Positions 19,871 to 41,197 of a stretch of 64,000 bases of DNA are shown piece by piece. A model generated the notes under the pieces. It saw only the letters and a list, made by a program, of their open reading frames with translations, searched no databases and was not told where the DNA came from. The position numbers and the translations under genes are program-made. The stretch is from the human T2T-CHM13v2.0 reference genome, Homo sapiens, in assembly GCF_009914755.1 (NCBI RefSeq), contig NC_060930.1; one strand, 5' to 3'. Positions within the stretch are counted from its first letter, which is position 1. Each line of letters starts with the position of its first letter.

Positions 19871-21708
19871 TATGGCTATGGTTATCTCAGTTGCCACACT
19901 GGAAAGGACACTGAGATATCCACATAAATGGCACTTAGAGTCTTCCCTGCACAATTTCACACCTAGAAATCTAAAACCCTCCAGCAGGACCTAAGTATGC
20001 CTGTCCCACCTGCCCAAAAAGGCAAATACATAAAATGTGGACCTGTGCAGGTGTCACTAACATTGCAGAAAAGGGACAGAAGTGATGAAAAACAACCCAA
20101 GAGGGTGCCTCCTCTCTGAGGTCCCCTTTTCTTTCAAGGACCACTGGAACGGCCAAGAAATCCCCTCCCCCCAGGCAACTAAGCATCAATCCTTGCAGCT
20201 CCGACCCCACACCTCAGGCTTCCAGCTCCCACTCCACAGGGGCTCACATACTATGCCAGCCTCTTGTCCACCTGCCTGAGGATTTAGGGCCAGGAGAGGC
20301 TTCAAGAGCCACTGTCTTCTTGTCCTGATCCCACAACAGGATCCTCCCTTGGTCATGGGGACCCGGCATCACTGAGCTGGGTTGGGGTACTTCATGAGGA
20401 CCCCTGAGGCCTCCTTCACTTCTCCCCACCCCCAACACATGCAGACAGATGGGAGATGTTTCCGGCGTGTGTGGGGCGGGGAGGGGGACGGGTATTGAGA
20501 TTTCCACGGGACTCTGAGTGGTGCGTCTGCTAACAACACAGCCCTCCCCCTTGGGCCGTGGGCATTTCCTCACCCAGACCTCCCCCTCCCAACCCAAACA
20601 CACCATCGCCGCCACCACCACAATCCCTCCAGTCCCCCTGGGCAAAAGCGATGTTCAGAGACGCGGGGTTTTGTTTACAATCTAATTTGTCCGGATAATT
20701 GCCTCAACTTTGCACTTCACTTTGCCCGCATGGCTCTGGCCTTGGGCCCCTTCTTCACTGGTTCGCAGAGCACTTTACGGGAAATTCCCTTTCCGCAGAG
20801 GGAGGCAGTGCGCGCCAGGGGGTGACCGTTCACAAAGCCCTGAAGGGGCCTCCCCACCTTCTACCCTCGGCTCAGGAAGCCCACCCCCAGCCCCCACGCA
20901 GTGGGGAGCAGGAGGGAGGCCAGACAGGGCCCGGGCCTGACACTGGCTCCGTCTCTGGGCCCCCGGCCACTCCCCGCGCCGAGCGCAGCCCGCCGGGAAC
21001 CAGTGAACCGTGTGGGATCAGGACTTGGCCGTACCTCCAGACTCCAGGGGATGGCCGGGGTTTGCAAGCGCCCCATAGGATTAGTCCGAGGCCAGGGTGA
21101 ATCCCTGGGGTCCCTCCACCTACCATCTTTTTCAGATCTGCCGCCTCACGTCTTCTCCCCACGTTCCCATTTTTCCTCCCCTAAAGTTTGGTGCACGTGG
21201 TTTTCTCTCGCTCTCAGCGGGCTGCCAGGCGGGGTGAAAGTTGCTGCACCTGCTTTAGGCGAATTATGGTAGCACTAGAAGTTGGTCTCCCCTCCCTCCG
21301 CCGCTTGCTCTCTCGCTCCCTCCTCCCTCGCTCTCCGCGCGCTCCCTCCTTCCCTCTCCACCCTCCTCCTCCCCCGCCCCCTCCCGCCCCGCCCGCGCGC
21401 CGCCCGCTCGCAGCCACTCGCAGCCCAGGCTCAGTCGCAGCCCCTCGGAGTCCGGAGCCCGCCGTCCCTGCGGACCGGACAGTGCGGCCGGCGGCCGGCG
21501 GCCGGGACGGAGCCCCCAGCCCGCGAGGAGGGCGCGGCGCAGGCGGCGGCGGCGCGGCGGGGAGGAGCCCGGGCCGGAACCAGGGCTGGGCCGGGGGCGG
21601 GGACGCCGGGGTCCGGGAGCCCGGGAGCCGGAGCGAGCTGACGAGCGTCGCGGAAGGACCGGGAAGGAGGAGCGGAGCCGGAGCGAGCCAAGCAGCCCAC
21701 AAAGTGCG

Positions 21709-21726
21709 ATGCCCCGGCGGGGTTGA
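21709..21726 (+). other. uORF1 in the FOXP4 5'UTR, MPRRG*
   Basis: ATG CCC CGG CGG GGT TGA; G at -3. Confidence 0.7.
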
Positions 21727-21847
21727 GGCGCGCGGCGGTCGGCCCGGCGCGCTGGGAGGACGCCCGGGAGCTGCGCGACGCGGGGCGGCGCGGAAGGGCA
21801 GCCCCGGCGGGCGGCGGCGGGCCCGGGCTGCGACCGGAGCGAGCCCC

Positions 21848-21865
21848 ATGCCCCGCGCGGGCTGA
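21848..21865 (+). other. uORF2 in the FOXP4 5'UTR, MPRAG*
   Basis: ATG CCC CGC GCG GGC TGA; weak context (C at -3). Confidence 0.7.
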
Positions 21866-24800
21866 CGGGCCGGAGCCCGCACGGAGCGGCCGGGCGGGAC
21901 AGGTAGGTGGCGGGTCGGGCCCAGGGACGTGGGTGGGGGCTGGGCGGGCGACCAGACCAACTCCCTCGCTCGCGCACTCTCTCGCCCGCTCGCTGGCTCA
22001 CTTTGTGTTTGCAAACTGCCCGCCCGAGACGCGCTGGGCGCCGGGCGCCAGGAGGAGCCGGGCCCGGGCCGGCGCACTTTGTTCCAGCCAGGGCCGGCCG
22101 TGGCGCACTGACCCCGCGCAGCCGCGACATTCCGCCCCTGGCCCGGGCCCCAGCGGGCCGGAGCTGCCTCGGGAACAGGTGGGGGCTGTGGCGCGGCGGG
22201 AGTGGGGGCAGCCGGAGGCCGGGGCGGGGAGGGGGGCGGCCGGAGAGGCCACCGAGGCCCGCCCTTCCCCAAGAATCTGGGCCCCGCCCCCTCCCCGCCG
22301 GGCCTCTGGGAATGGGGTGTACGGGGGCGCGACCCCCTCCCCGCCCCGAGTCAGACAAAGAATACTTCCCGGCCCAGACTTTCCAGAGCTGGGAAGGGAA
22401 GTGGCTCCCCCCAACTCTAGTCGGTACCGGACTCCCCAGGACGCGCCGGAGACAGATGAAAATGGGGGCAAGAGAGCGGGGGATCGCGGTCCTACCCGCC
22501 GTGTCGTCTCTGGTGAAGAGAGGACTTGTCTTGCTGAGGTCGCACCTCGGAAGTGCCAGGGCCAGTCAGCCCCTTTTCCATCGCTCGGTCAGCTCGGGGA
22601 TAGAGCGGAAAACTTCTTGGGGACTTGAGAGCGTCTGGAAATGGCCCCTGTGATTTGTGCGCCGGAGGTGGAGGGTGGGGAAACGATCTGGCTGACACCT
22701 CTACTCACCCGCTGTGGAGAGAGCTCCCGCTTCACCACTTAAGGGGGGAAGAGAGGGCGGCCACGGGGGCCCGGAGGCCACCAGGGAAGGAGCCCGGAGT
22801 GACCGAGCAGGACCCCCCCCCGCCCCAACTGAGGAGTCTGGTATCTCCCCTGGACAACCCCAGCACCTCTCTGACCGGCGGCGCTTCAGCCTCGGGCTCC
22901 TCATCCACGCCAAACAAACTTCCTTGGGCTGCGTCAGAGCACAGCCAGTGGCGCTAGAATGCGACCTGGGGTCCCGGCCGCCCCCATAAAGGACCGGGTA
23001 ATTTCGCGGAATGCGGATTTTGAGACAGGCCCAGACGGCGGCGGATTCCCTGTGTCCCCCAACTGGGGCGATCTCGTGAACACACCTGCGTCCCACCCCG
23101 ATCCTAGGTTGGGGGGAAAGGGTATGGGAACCCTGAGCCCAGAGCGCGCCCCGCTCTTTCCTTTGCTCCCCGGCTTCCCTGGCCAGCCCCCTCCCGGCTG
23201 GTTTCCTCGCTCACTCGGCGCCTGGCGTTTCGGGCGTCTGGAGATCACCGCGTGTCTGGCACCCCAACGTCTAGTCTCCCCGCAGGTTGACCGCGGCGCC
23301 TGGAGCCGGGAATAGGGGTGGGGAGTCCGGAGAACCAAACCCGAGCCTGAAGTTGCCATTCGGGTGACTCCCGAGAAAGCCCGGGAGCATTTTGGCCAAT
23401 GCGGGTTTTTACCTGAACTTCAGCATCTTCACCCCGGTTTCGGAGACCTGCCTAGATTCGTCCCAGCACGCACTGTTTCGGGTTCGGGATTGAGGGTTAG
23501 GGCAGCACACACAGCTTGAGGGGCAATTGTTAGGACTGGCCCGAGTGCCCGCAGAAAGAAAGAGCAGCGGGGTTGTCGTATGGCCTGTAGCTGCGGGAAG
23601 GTCTGTGCCGGTCCCACTGTCGAACCCAGAAGCTCACTTTCCACAGAGAACCAGGGCTGAAGGGCCCCCTGACCGCCATGCCCTGCGGGCACCGGGCATT
23701 TTGAGCTCTCCCCCACCCCCTCCCCCTGCTGCGAACCAGCCGGTAGGTGCAGGGGCCGAAGGCCAGGCCCAGTGGACCCAGCCGCCTGAAGGGGAGCCAC
23801 GGCCTCAGAAAACCTCTGCCCGCCCCCGCGGAAAACCGCTGTGGGGAAGTCTGAAGGCCTTTTTTTTTTTTTTTTTCAACTTGAGAAACTTTTGCCTCGG
23901 GGTTTTGGGGCTCTGTTACCTGGTGGCTGGAGGGAGGATACTGGGGCTCTGCTCTTGGTACCTGGACAGCTTGTTGGCTCCCATGGTGCCCTTTCGATCT
24001 GAAACTCAAAAAACTGTGAGTTGGGGGAGTCACTCACACTCTAGTCAGTGGGGCAAGGTGGCAAGGGGAAGAGGTGGTTTTGTGGTTGCCCCCTCTCAGC
24101 CTCCACACCCAGGGCCAGGGTGAGCGCTGAATCTCTCCTGCGGGACGGGACCCTCAGGACCCACTTTATCCTGGCTCCAGCCTTGCTACTAAGTTTGGGA
24201 GACCATGGGAGCCTTCTCTCCTGGCACCAAGGGCTGGGCGCCTGGGTGGAGTTTTCTGTCCTTCTCCCTGTCCTGGACAGGTTTCCCAGGAGTTACGGAG
24301 TTGGGGAACCCCTGAGCCCTGGAGAGAGAAAGACCTGACCCCAGTGCTGGAGAACGCCAGGGCCAGAGCATTTGCAAAGGGTCCCACTTGCAAAGGGACC
24401 TGCTCCTGTCCCTTTCTGTGTAGGGATCTTCCTCACACCTAGACGCCCCCAGCCCCCTTCCTCTGCCTTTAGAGCCGAAAACTTCCGTTCTGGCTGTAGG
24501 CAGGTAGGTCCCTTCTTGCCAGGAATGTGCATATCCTGCTGGGCCCCTACCCCAAACATACCTCTTCCTTGGTGGGAGGGAAGCAGAGGGACTGGGAGAG
24601 GAAGGCTTGCTTTTGATCCAGTAATTCCCCCAAATGTTTGCTGAGCCCCTACTCTGCCTGGGCAGGTCCCAGGCTGAGTACTGGGGTACCCAAGCAGTGA
24701 AGGCTGGGGTCTGCTGTCTGGACCTCAGATTGTTGGGGTAGGAGAGACAGATATCACATGGTGGGGGGGAGGGTGGGGGGGAGAAGAATGGGAACAGGGT

Positions 24801-40413: not shown

Positions 40414-40780
40414 CCTAAAATAGCCCTTCTTCATGTCATTATTATAAACAGTGCAAAACCTCAACTGGGGCAAAAAATCCTCACCCAGAGGGGCAGTGCA
40501 AGGGCTTTGTCTCCTCCCTTCCCCACCCCAGCACGAGGTCTCCTAGAAGTCAAGAAAACATGGTTGGGGGTGTGGAGCCACCCCTCACCTGGGGGGACAT
40601 CGGGAGGAGCCACATTCCATCAGGCATCCCAGGAGCAGCCTCTGGGAAGTTGAGGAGAAGTAGATGCCCAGCTACTCCTGTGGCGATGGTTATGTTTTTG
40701 GGGGTCAGCAGTCACTGCCCTTTCAGCCTTCAGCCTCAGCCTCTCCCCTGTGTCTCTCTTCCTCCTCCAGGTACCGCTAG

Positions 40781-41197
<417 letters not shown>

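What the first reader, a model, noticed from the sequence alone, without database searches (positions are those of the whole stretch)
21709..21865. Twin pentapeptide uORFs, MPRRG* and MPRAG*, are the only AUGs in FOXP4 exon 1
Seen: the roughly 490-nt exon 1 contains exactly two ATGs (21709, 21848). Both read ATG CCC CGN NNN GGY TGA, giving M-P-R-x-G-stop, with the same length, the same stop and synonymous differences at codons 3 and 5. In a stop-poor GC-rich leader, two AUGs both ending after exactly five codons with 4/5 identical residues looks non-random. An 11-mer CCGGAGCGAGC precedes each (21678, 21834), with a third copy at 21628. Established: short sequence-dependent uORFs (e.g. AMD1 MAGDIS) regulate downstream translation, and FOXP genes are dosage sensitive. 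Inference: a duplicated, peptide-dependent stalling or reinitiation module that sets FOXP4 dosage. I know of no description of it. Caveat: Pro, Arg, Ala and Gly are all favoured by GC-rich sequence.
Basis: partly seen in the sequence, partly recalled or inferred. Interest (0 to 1): 0.85.

Follow-up and report, generated by a model that had tools for sequence, protein, structure and literature searches.

The report
Two look-alike mini-uORFs in FOXP4 leader
The FOXP4 messenger RNA leader really does carry two near-identical five-codon upstream reading frames, but they look like ordinary tolerated mini-uORFs built from a locally repeated GC-rich word, not a special peptide-sensing switch.

Summary
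FOXP4 exon 1 (21416-21902, 487 nt, 82% GC) has exactly two ATGs, reading MPRRG* (21709-21726) and MPRAG* (21848-21865). They are the only upstream AUGs in the 503-nt MANE leader. The 11-mer occurs three times.

Against a composition null the pair is not chance. In 20,000 dinucleotide shuffles, 4 had two ATGs both closed within 5 codons, and none had a twin pair.

That null overstates the surprise. In 50 real chr6 leaders with GC of at least 70%, 13 of 69 uATGs open ORFs of 5 codons or fewer, against 6.3% in shuffles.

The peptide likeness is the rarer part: random 4-codon windows of the exon match at 3 or more of 4 residues 1.1% of the time. It sits in recurring GC-rich words of a repetitive exon.

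Nothing supports peptide dependence. Start contexts are moderate and weak. The shared 12-mer is read in different frames. No other protein-coding gene has such an ORF near its 5' end.

Conservation, ribosome footprints and TSS usage could not be tested. Most likely these are peptide-independent, mildly repressive mini-uORFs working by leaky scanning and reinitiation.

The parts
21416..21902 (+). FOXP4 exon 1, all 5' leader (487 nt, 82% GC, only 22 T)
   Evidence: RefSeq rows read; composition
21709..21726 (+). uORF1, MPRRG-stop. The AUG is at mRNA position 294 with context -3G/+4C. It is in the CDS frame. Its TGA is the only frame-2 stop in exon 1.
21848..21865 (+). uORF2, MPRAG-stop. The AUG is at mRNA position 433 with context -3C/+4C. 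It is in frame 0. Its stop lies 53 nt before the main AUG. Its body CCCGCGCGGG is the only 10-nt perfect palindrome in the exon.
21628..21638 (+). First copy of the 11-mer CCGGAGCGAGC, followed directly by the frame-1 TGA at 21639-21641
21678..21689 (+). 12-mer CCGGAGCGAGCC, with 19 nt between it and uAUG1
21834..21845 (+). 12-mer CCGGAGCGAGCC, with 2 nt between it and uAUG2
21802..21811 (+). Second copy of CCCCGGCGGG, the body word of uORF1. This copy has no ATG and no stop.
21717..21729 (+). 5' arm of a predicted helix, covering the 3' half of uORF1 and its stop. It pairs with 21843-21856.
   Evidence: pair probability up to 0.88; duplex -32.4 kcal/mol, top 2.3% of window pairs. Not above shuffles as a domain.
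21843..21856 (+). 3' arm of the same predicted helix, covering uAUG2 and the 5' half of uORF2
40771..40789 (+). Last 16 nt of the leader in exon 2, followed by the main start ATG at 40787 (ATGATGG). There is an in-frame TAG at 40778-40780.

Best explanation
These are two genuine but ordinary AUG-initiated mini-uORFs in the long, GC-rich, T-poor CpG-island leader of FOXP4.

Their likeness most likely comes from local repetition of GC-rich words: a micro-duplication, or recurrent slippage, of a unit made of CCGGAGCGAGCC plus a CCCCG...GGG word. GC-driven codon bias (Pro, Arg, Ala, Gly) adds to the likeness.

Their shortness is what purifying selection leaves behind. Upstream AUGs are tolerated when a stop follows at once. 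Long or CDS-overlapping upstream ORFs are removed.

Inferred mechanism:
- Most scanning 43S complexes leak past both AUGs, because the contexts are moderate (uAUG1) and weak (uAUG2).
- The minority that translate a five-codon uORF largely resume scanning and reinitiate.
- uORF1 is followed by 121 nt before uAUG2 and 192 nt before the main AUG, so it costs little.
- uORF2 ends only 53 nt before the main AUG. It is therefore the more repressive per initiation event.

The net effect would be a modest dampening of FOXP4 translation that does not depend on the peptide sequence. The sequence anatomy and the statistics are shown by tool results. Translation of the uORFs, the size of any effect and the origin by duplication are inferred.
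For: Anatomy.

Short uORFs are common in real GC-rich leaders. They made up 13 of 69 uATGs (19%) in 50 chr6 leaders with GC of at least 0.70, against 6.3% in shuffles. For GC of at least 0.75 the figures were 5 of 31 (16%) against 4.5%. On length alone, two such uORFs in one leader is roughly a 3% event.

Local repetitiveness:
- The 11-mer occurs three times; 17 of 3,000 shuffles reach that.
- The 12-mer lies upstream of both AUGs.
- CCCCGGCGGG occurs again at 21802 without an ATG or a stop.
- GCTGACG surrounds two of the three stops.

The 12-mer is read in different frames before the two AUGs (31 versus 14 nt). This fits a DNA-level repeat.

No peptide family exists. Only the FOXP4 pair, of 75 genomic M-P-R-x-G-stop sites, lies near a protein-coding 5' end.

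Literature, passages read:
- PMC7253449: uAUGs that create overlapping ORFs are selected against more strongly than those creating contained uORFs.
- PMC13338717: hundreds of human genes carry start-stop or 9-nt uORFs, and elements near the main AUG repress about 50% more than 5'-proximal ones.
Against: The twin likeness is not trivially explained.
- 0 of 20,000 shuffles gave a twin pair.
- Only 1.1% of random 4-codon window pairs from this exon match at 3 or more of 4 residues.
- 0 of 8 same-length uORF pairs in 110 real leaders were similar.
- By my rough product (inference), the chance is of order 1e-4 per two-uAUG GC-rich leader. That is at most about one expected genome-wide.

A duplication is not demonstrated.
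- Local alignment of the two neighbourhoods scores no better than shuffles: 31 against a mean of 30, with 796 of 2,000 shuffles as good.
- 3.1% of 31-nt window pairs in the exon share an 11-mer anyway.

The sample of real leaders is small (110), comes from chr6 only, favours long leaders and leaves out the MHC.

No evidence on translation, conservation or TSS usage was obtainable.
Confidence: 0.55

Rival explanations
1. GCN4/ATF4-like delayed reinitiation. Ribosomes translate uORF1, resume scanning and, when ternary complex is plentiful, reinitiate at uORF2. That uORF ends too close to the main AUG (53 nt) for efficient reinitiation. Under eIF2-alpha phosphorylation they bypass uAUG2 and reach the main AUG, so FOXP4 translation resists stress or is induced by it. 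The peptide plays no part.
For: - There are two contained uORFs of five codons. The spacings are 121 nt (uORF1 stop to uAUG2) and 53 nt (uORF2 stop to main AUG).
[quoted passage not shown] That is the position of the GCG that Bohlen et al. link to DENR dependence in ATF4 uORF2 (PMC7494916, passages).
- Repression by mini-uORFs depends on position (PMC13338717, passages).
Against: - uORF2 does not overlap the CDS, unlike the inhibitory uORF of ATF4.
- uAUG2 has a weak context (-3C/+4C) and uAUG1 only a moderate one, so few ribosomes would enter the relay.
- No paper in the library links FOXP4 to uORFs, the ISR, DENR or eIF4A. Target lists in supplements were closed.
Confidence: 0.12
2. MPRRG and MPRAG act as nascent peptides that stall the ribosome at termination, perhaps sensing arginine, polyamines or eIF5A. 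The duplicated module sets FOXP4 dosage.
For: - Both uORFs have the same length and the same stop, and 4 of 5 residues match. The differences at codons 3 and 5 are synonymous.
- The arrangement is non-random against composition.
- Both peptides end in Gly-UGA.
Against: - With only 18 nt each, two synonymous differences carry no statistical weight.
- Five residues is shorter than any eukaryotic arrest peptide I can recall. MAGDIS has 6 residues (recalled, not tested).
- The start contexts are weak or moderate.
- The residues are those favoured by the exon's composition: G 20%, R 20%, A 18% and P 12% of all triplets.
- No such ORF lies near another protein-coding 5' end.
- For short uORFs, the effects in the literature passages I read are at the codon or tRNA level (PMC7494916).
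Confidence: 0.04
3. An RNA-structure coupling. The two uORFs are mutually complementary because each is nearly palindromic. They form the base of a hairpin of about 150 nt (21711-21862) that hides uAUG2. Termination at uORF1, or scanning helicases, would open it. The likeness would be a by-product of selection for the stem.
For: - Pairs between 21717-21729 and 21843-21856 have probability up to 0.88 in the ensemble of exon 1.
- The duplex energy is -32.4 kcal/mol, in the top 2.3% of 5,356 window pairs of the exon.
- The same hairpin is both the MFE and the centroid of the local fold.
Against: - The local domain is not more stable than shuffles: z = -1.19, and 27 of 200 shuffles fold as well.
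- The whole exon folds less well than shuffles: z = +2.33, and 99 of 100 shuffles fold at least as well.
- In 82% GC RNA, strong pairings are everywhere; the best window pairs reach -45.6 kcal/mol.
- There was no Rfam match.
- No covariation test is possible without orthologues.
Confidence: 0.05
4. The uORFs are largely irrelevant because most FOXP4 transcripts start downstream of one or both of them. CpG-island promoters initiate over a broad zone, so the uORFs are seldom present in the mRNA.
For: - The exon lies in an 80-85% GC CpG island with no sharp promoter feature. GC skew flips sign around 21400-21500.
- RefSeq gives a single start at 21416 for all curated transcripts. That is a convention, not a measurement.
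Against: All 6 NM_ transcripts, 6 of the 7 XM_ models and both XR_ models listed start at 21416. No data on actual TSS usage was available either way.
Confidence: 0.1

Closest known systems
Ordinary short contained uORFs and start-stop or 9-nt uORFs of human leaders (PMC13338717; PMC7253449)
   Same: An AUG in the leader with an in-frame stop a few codons later. The ORF is contained in the UTR and sits in a long GC-rich leader. The expected action is capture of some scanning ribosomes followed by reinitiation, with more repression the closer the element lies to the main AUG.
   Different: Here there are two of them with the same length and 4 of 5 identical residues, each preceded by the same 12-mer. 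Their translation and conservation were not tested.
GCN4 (yeast) and ATF4 (mammals) delayed-reinitiation leaders
   Same: Several very short uORFs lie in series, and the spacing between them is in the range where reacquisition of ternary complex matters.
   Different: The last FOXP4 uORF does not overlap the CDS. The start contexts are weak or moderate. No stress response is known for FOXP4 translation.
AMD1 MAGDIS uORF and other arrest-peptide uORFs (recalled from general knowledge)
   Same: A very short uORF upstream of a dosage-sensitive gene.
   Different: MAGDIS acts through its amino-acid sequence and is conserved as a peptide. For FOXP4 neither property was shown. The peptides are one residue shorter and are made of the residues that the base composition favours.
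DENR-MCTS1-dependent short uORFs (PMC7494916)
   Same: A short uORF is followed by reinitiation. uORF2 has GCG as its third-to-last codon, as ATF4 uORF2 does.
   Different: The penultimate codons are GGT and GGC. They are not among ATG, CTG and GCG, the codons named in the passages I read. The start contexts are not strong.

Membership tests
Contained AUG uORF of an annotated mRNA leader | An AUG upstream of the main AUG within the annotated 5'UTR | tested here: met
   The ATGs at 21709 and 21848 lie in exon 1 of NM_001012426.2. The main ATG is at 40787.
Contained AUG uORF of an annotated mRNA leader | An in-frame stop before the main AUG, with no overlap of the CDS | tested here: met
   The TGAs at 21724 and 21863 lie 192 and 53 nt before the main AUG.
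Contained AUG uORF of an annotated mRNA leader | Evidence that ribosomes initiate there (Ribo-seq or TI-seq) | not testable with these tools
   No footprint data are available here. No paper in the library treats a FOXP4 uORF. Supplements were closed.
Conserved-peptide or arrest-peptide uORF (AMD1 MAGDIS type) | The amino-acid sequence is conserved among orthologues beyond nucleotide conservation | not testable with these tools
   No vertebrate genomes are reachable. Exon 1 has no second copy or processed pseudogene in the human reference.
Conserved-peptide or arrest-peptide uORF (AMD1 MAGDIS type) | The effect depends on the peptide: missense changes abolish it and synonymous changes do not | not testable with these tools
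   This needs reporter experiments.
Conserved-peptide or arrest-peptide uORF (AMD1 MAGDIS type) | The likeness of the two copies lies at the peptide level rather than the DNA level | tested here: inconclusive
   Inside the ORFs, 2 of the 3 differing codons are synonymous. With 18 nt this has no power. The shared 12-mer upstream is read in different frames (31 versus 14 nt before the AUG). The residues match the exon's composition bias.
GCN4/ATF4 delayed reinitiation | A short 5' uORF followed, at a distance, by a second uORF | tested here: met
   There are two five-codon uORFs 121 nt apart.
GCN4/ATF4 delayed reinitiation | The last uORF is inhibitory because it overlaps the CDS (ATF4 type) | tested here: not met
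   uORF2 ends 53 nt upstream of the main AUG.
GCN4/ATF4 delayed reinitiation | Main-ORF translation is induced or spared when eIF2-alpha is phosphorylated | not testable with these tools
   The search of FOXP4 with eIF4A, translation efficiency, ISR and DENR gave no FOXP4 paper among the 15 listed.
DENR-MCTS1-dependent short uORF | The penultimate codon is among those named as DENR-dependent (ATG, CTG, GCG) | tested here: not met
   The penultimate codons are GGT and GGC. [quoted passage not shown] The codon list comes from passages of PMC7494916. The full codon table is in a supplement I could not see.
Local tandem or segmental duplication | The two copies align over their flanks better than chance | tested here: not met
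   The local alignment score was 31 against a shuffle mean of 30.0 (sd 5.3). 796 of 2,000 shuffles scored as high.
Local tandem or segmental duplication | Collinear shared blocks: the 12-mer, then the ORF | tested here: inconclusive
   An exact 12-mer lies before both AUGs, with a 17-nt length difference between the copies. 3.1% of 31-nt window pairs of the exon share an 11-mer. The ORFs are 14 of 18 nt identical.

The most novel reading that the evidence does not exclude
The pair is a selected, duplicated translational control module. Either the M-P-R-x-G-stop peptides stall termination, or the two mutually complementary uORFs form a translation-sensitive hairpin, so that termination at uORF1 exposes uAUG2. 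Either way it would tune the dosage of a dosage-sensitive forkhead factor. In the first case it would be the shortest eukaryotic arrest peptide I know of. My evidence does not exclude this reading, because conservation, footprints and reporters could not be examined. The twin likeness is itself unexplained by composition (0 of 20,000 shuffles).
Probability: 0.05. Interest if true: 0.65.

Novelty: new member of a known kind. Interest (0 to 1): 0.25.

Why it matters
FOXP4 is a developmental transcription factor, so its 5' leader is a place where non-coding variants could change protein dosage.

Three facts give a concrete frame for interpreting 5'UTR variants:
- The MANE leader holds exactly two upstream AUGs.
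- Each is closed after five codons by the only stop available in its frame within exon 1.
- uORF2 ends 53 nt before the main AUG.

Loss of the uORF2 stop would extend that ORF to the TGA at 40788-40790, which overlaps the main start codon. PMC7253449 reports overlapping ORFs as the uORF variant class under the strongest selection.

Beyond that the finding is ordinary unless conservation or footprint data show otherwise.

The side result may be useful as a base rate for future scans: real GC-rich leaders carry about three times more uORFs of 5 codons or fewer than composition predicts.

Tried and rejected
Pure chance under composition: rejected.

Extended tandem duplication: not supported by alignment. 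TRF found only short-period GC repeats and none with a period of 139-156 nt.

A processed pseudogene or second genomic copy of exon 1, to use as an older snapshot: none. The only other hit was a 74-nt, 79% identical GC-rich stretch.

A genome-wide family of MPRxG-stop uORFs:
- The strict motif has 7 sites, against 2 for the reversed control.
- The broad motif has 75 sites, against 29 for the control.
- Only the FOXP4 pair is near a protein-coding 5' end.
- Caveats: gene 5' ends are the outermost annotated ones. AGR arginine codons and TAG stops were not included.

A known RNA family: no Rfam match at E of 1 or below in 21000-22400.

An unusually stable structure: rejected.

N-terminal extension of FOXP4 from uORF1's frame: rejected, because an in-frame TAG lies at 40778.

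Longer CUG or ACG-initiated ORFs as the real units: noted but not pursued. The peptides upstream of the AUGs are unrelated because of the frame difference.

Literature. These searches found nothing on a FOXP4 uORF in main texts:
- FOXP4 + uORF: 3 papers, all unrelated on reading passages.
- FOXP4 + 'upstream open reading frame': the same 3 papers.
- FOXP4 + ribosome profiling / 5 UTR.
- FOXP4 + eIF4A / translation efficiency / ISR / DENR.
- The two peptide strings and the two ORF strings: only MRI 'MPRAG' typos.

Supplementary tables were closed and may hold relevant rows. These include Ribo-seq ORF lists, DENR targets, and the gene lists of PMC7253449 and PMC7494916.

Not done:
- FOXP1, FOXP2 and FOXP3 leaders were not examined.
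- No orthologue comparison was made, because no vertebrate genomes are in the tools.

Full report
WHAT IS THERE

FOXP4 exon 1 (window 21416-21902, + strand) is 487 nt with A64 C168 G233 T22, which is 82% GC. It contains exactly two ATGs.
- The first, at 21709, reads ATG CCC CGG CGG GGT TGA (MPRRG-stop).
- The second, at 21848, reads ATG CCC CGC GCG GGC TGA (MPRAG-stop).
- The two ORFs are identical at 14 of 18 nt. Codons 3 and 5 differ synonymously, and codon 4 is Arg versus Ala.

The 11-mer CCGGAGCGAGC occurs at 21628, 21678 and 21834 and nowhere else in the 64-kb window. The last two copies are an exact 12-mer.

In the MANE Select transcript NM_001012426.2, exon 1 is spliced to 40771 and the CDS starts at 40787. 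The leader is 503 nt. Its last 16 nt hold no ATG, so the two uAUGs are the only ones in the whole leader.

Exon 1 has only three stop triplets, one per reading frame: 21639, 21724 and 21863. Two of them are the uORF stops.

uORF1 is in the CDS frame, but an in-frame TAG at 40778 closes that frame before the main AUG. uORF2 is in frame 0.

Spacings:
- uORF1 stop to uAUG2: 121 nt.
- uORF1 stop to main AUG: 192 nt.
- uORF2 stop to main AUG: 53 nt.

Start contexts are -3G/+4C for uAUG1 and -3C/+4C for uAUG2. These are 'moderate' and 'weak' by the definition used in PMC7253449 (passages read).

The FOXP4-AS1 exons listed by RefSeq do not overlap the uORFs.

IS IT MORE THAN CHANCE?

Against base composition, clearly yes. 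Results from 20,000 dinucleotide-preserving shuffles of exon 1:
- 5,672 had two ATGs.
- Of all 21,749 shuffled ATGs, only 2.3% opened an ORF of 5 codons or fewer, and 0.58% opened one of exactly 5. The median was 78 codons.
- In 4 shuffles both ORFs were 5 codons or shorter.
- In 0 shuffles was there a same-length pair at least 80% identical.
- In 0 shuffles did the motif itself appear.

Genome-wide, the strict motif ATGCCCCGNNNNGGYTGA has 7 sites on both strands, against 2 for the reversed control. Two of the seven are these.

The composition null is too generous to the finding, however. I assembled 110 complete MANE 5'UTRs from chr6. They were at least 100 nt long, long ones were favoured, and 28-34 Mb was left out. 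Results:
- In the 50 leaders with GC of at least 0.70, 13 of 69 uATGs (19%) open ORFs of 5 codons or fewer, against 6.3% in their own shuffles.
- In the 28 leaders with GC of at least 0.75, the figures are 5 of 31 (16%) against 4.5%.
- Real GC-rich leaders are thus about threefold enriched for mini-uORFs.

This fits the report in PMC7253449 that uAUGs creating CDS-overlapping ORFs are under stronger negative selection than those creating contained uORFs (passages). On length alone, two mini-uORFs in one two-uAUG leader is roughly a 3% event (inference from those rates).

In the sample itself:
- 1 of 50 GC-rich leaders had two mini-uORFs. This was SLC22A23 (MSRGG, MGAA), which also has a third uATG.
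- 0 of 19 leaders with two or more uATGs had all of them at 5 codons or fewer.

The peptide likeness is the rarer feature.
- Two random 4-codon windows of exon 1 match at 3 or more of 4 residues in 1.1% of pairs.
- P-R-x-G is read at only 3 of 476 positions of the exon, and two of those follow the ATGs.
- None of 8 same-length uORF pairs in the 110 real leaders was at least 60% identical.

My rough product is of order 1e-4 per two-uAUG GC-rich leader. That means at most about one such case expected in the genome by independent chance (inference). The pair is unusual, but not far beyond what a whole-genome scan should turn up once.

WHERE THE LIKENESS PROBABLY COMES FROM

The exon is locally repetitive.
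- The 11-mer in three non-overlapping copies is matched or exceeded in 17 of 3,000 shuffles.
- CCGGAGC occurs five times in the exon.
- The body word of uORF1, CCCCGGCGGG, recurs at 21802 with neither ATG nor stop.
- GCTGACG surrounds two of the three stops.

The 12-mer lies 19 nt before uAUG1 but 2 nt before uAUG2. The 17-nt difference means it is read in different frames. The repeat is therefore a DNA repeat and not a peptide repeat.

This points to a micro-duplication or recurrent slippage of GC-rich words, but I could not prove it.
- Local alignment of the two neighbourhoods scores 31 against a shuffle mean of 30.0, and 796 of 2,000 shuffles are as good.
- 3.1% of 31-nt window pairs in the exon share an 11-mer anyway.
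- TRF finds no repeat with the 139-156-nt period.
- Exon 1 has no other copy in the human reference.

STRUCTURE

Both ORF bodies are inverted repeats: CCCCG-G-CGGGG, and CCCGCGCGGG, which is the only 10-nt perfect palindrome of the exon. They are therefore also complementary to each other.

In the predicted ensemble of exon 1, 21717-21729 pairs with 21843-21856 with probability up to 0.88. The first arm covers the 3' half of uORF1 and its stop. The second covers uAUG2 and the 5' half of uORF2. The duplex energy of -32.4 kcal/mol is in the top 2.3% of 5,356 window pairs.

The enclosing domain is nonetheless not more stable than shuffles: -113.3 against -108.2 ± 4.3 kcal/mol, z = -1.19, with 27 of 200 shuffles as good. 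The whole exon folds worse than its shuffles: -283.9 against -297.5 kcal/mol, z = +2.33. There is no Rfam match. I keep this as a minor rival.

HOW IT MOST LIKELY WORKS

From established knowledge of scanning and reinitiation, uORFs this short are generally permissive for reinitiation. The effects found so far for them depend on the codon or tRNA at the end of the uORF, not on the peptide (PMC7494916, passages). Repression grows as the element nears the main AUG (PMC13338717, passages).

With a moderate and a weak start context, most ribosomes should leak past both AUGs. Those translating uORF1 have 192 nt in which to become competent again. Those translating uORF2 have only 53 nt.

I therefore expect a modest, peptide-independent dampening, with uORF2 the more costly per event. 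All of this is inference; no translation data were available.

A GCN4/ATF4-like stress relay is possible from the spacing. It lacks the overlapping or non-permissive last uORF and strong starts.

The peptide-stalling model has no support.
- The residues are those the composition favours: G, R, A and P make up 70% of all triplet translations of the exon.
- The two synonymous differences have no statistical power.
- Of 75 genomic sites reading M-P-R(CGN)-x-G-TGA/TAA, only the FOXP4 pair lies within 2 kb downstream of a same-strand protein-coding gene 5' end.

COMPARISON WITH WHAT IS KNOWN, AND NOVELTY

The pair belongs to the known kind 'short contained uORFs'. It is not described for FOXP4 in the main text of any paper in the library (searches; passages of the three co-mention papers). 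Supplements were closed and might list it.

It does not meet the ATF4-type overlap criterion. Its penultimate codons are not among those named for DENR dependence. Membership in the arrest-peptide class could not be tested.

VERDICT

Its distinctive claim of peptide dependence is unsupported.

Interest is low to moderate (0.25). It would rise sharply only if orthologue alignment showed peptide-level conservation or if footprints showed stalling.

Noticed in passing
window 21300-21800: GC skew flips from -0.39 (21300-21499) to +0.25 (21500-21799) at the annotated TSS. AT skew reaches +0.78. The sense strand of exon 1 has only 22 T in 487 nt. This strand asymmetry by itself makes ATG and all stop codons scarce.
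   Followed up: partly
window 21286-21405: A C/T-rich, strand-pure repeat tract lies just upstream of the TSS. It has CCCT-like units and a 23-nt period with 4 copies.
   Followed up: no
window 21583-21602: There is one canonical G-quadruplex-type motif (four G-runs of 3 or more with short loops) in the leader, upstream of uORF1.
   Followed up: no
window 21507, 21586, 21752: Three near-cognate starts have -3G/+4G context: ACG at 21507, CTG at 21586 and CTG at 21752. They open ORFs of 44, 46 and 37 codons. Each ends at one of the exon's three stops, so each AUG uORF is the tail of a possible CUG-initiated ORF.
   Followed up: partly
window 40778-40790: The main start is ATGATGG. An in-frame TAG lies 9 nt upstream, and a frame-0 TGA (40788-40790) overlaps the start codon. 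If the uORF2 stop were lost, that ORF would end on the main AUG itself.
   Followed up: partly
window 21717-21729 with 21843-21856: uORF1's 3' half and stop are predicted to pair with uAUG2 and the 5' half of uORF2, with pair probability up to 0.88. This forms the base of a hairpin of about 150 nt that is not more stable than shuffles.
   Followed up: yes
L065 (G000:C6:3325244-3325795), SLC22A23 leader: This is the only other GC-rich leader, of 50 sampled, with two mini-uORFs (MSRGG and MGAA; GC 0.82; a third uATG is present). The peptides are again rich in Arg, Gly and Ala.
   Followed up: no
110 chr6 MANE 5'UTRs (L003-L102): Real leaders carry more very short uORFs than their dinucleotide shuffles in every GC class. 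For example, the fractions at 5 codons or fewer are 30% against 19% below 0.60 GC, and 19% against 6.3% at 0.70 GC or above.
   Followed up: partly
L002 (G000:C6:44057634-44057704): This is the only other genomic match to exon 1: 74 nt at 79% identity to the GGC-rich part (query 131-204). It looks like low-complexity resemblance.
   Followed up: no
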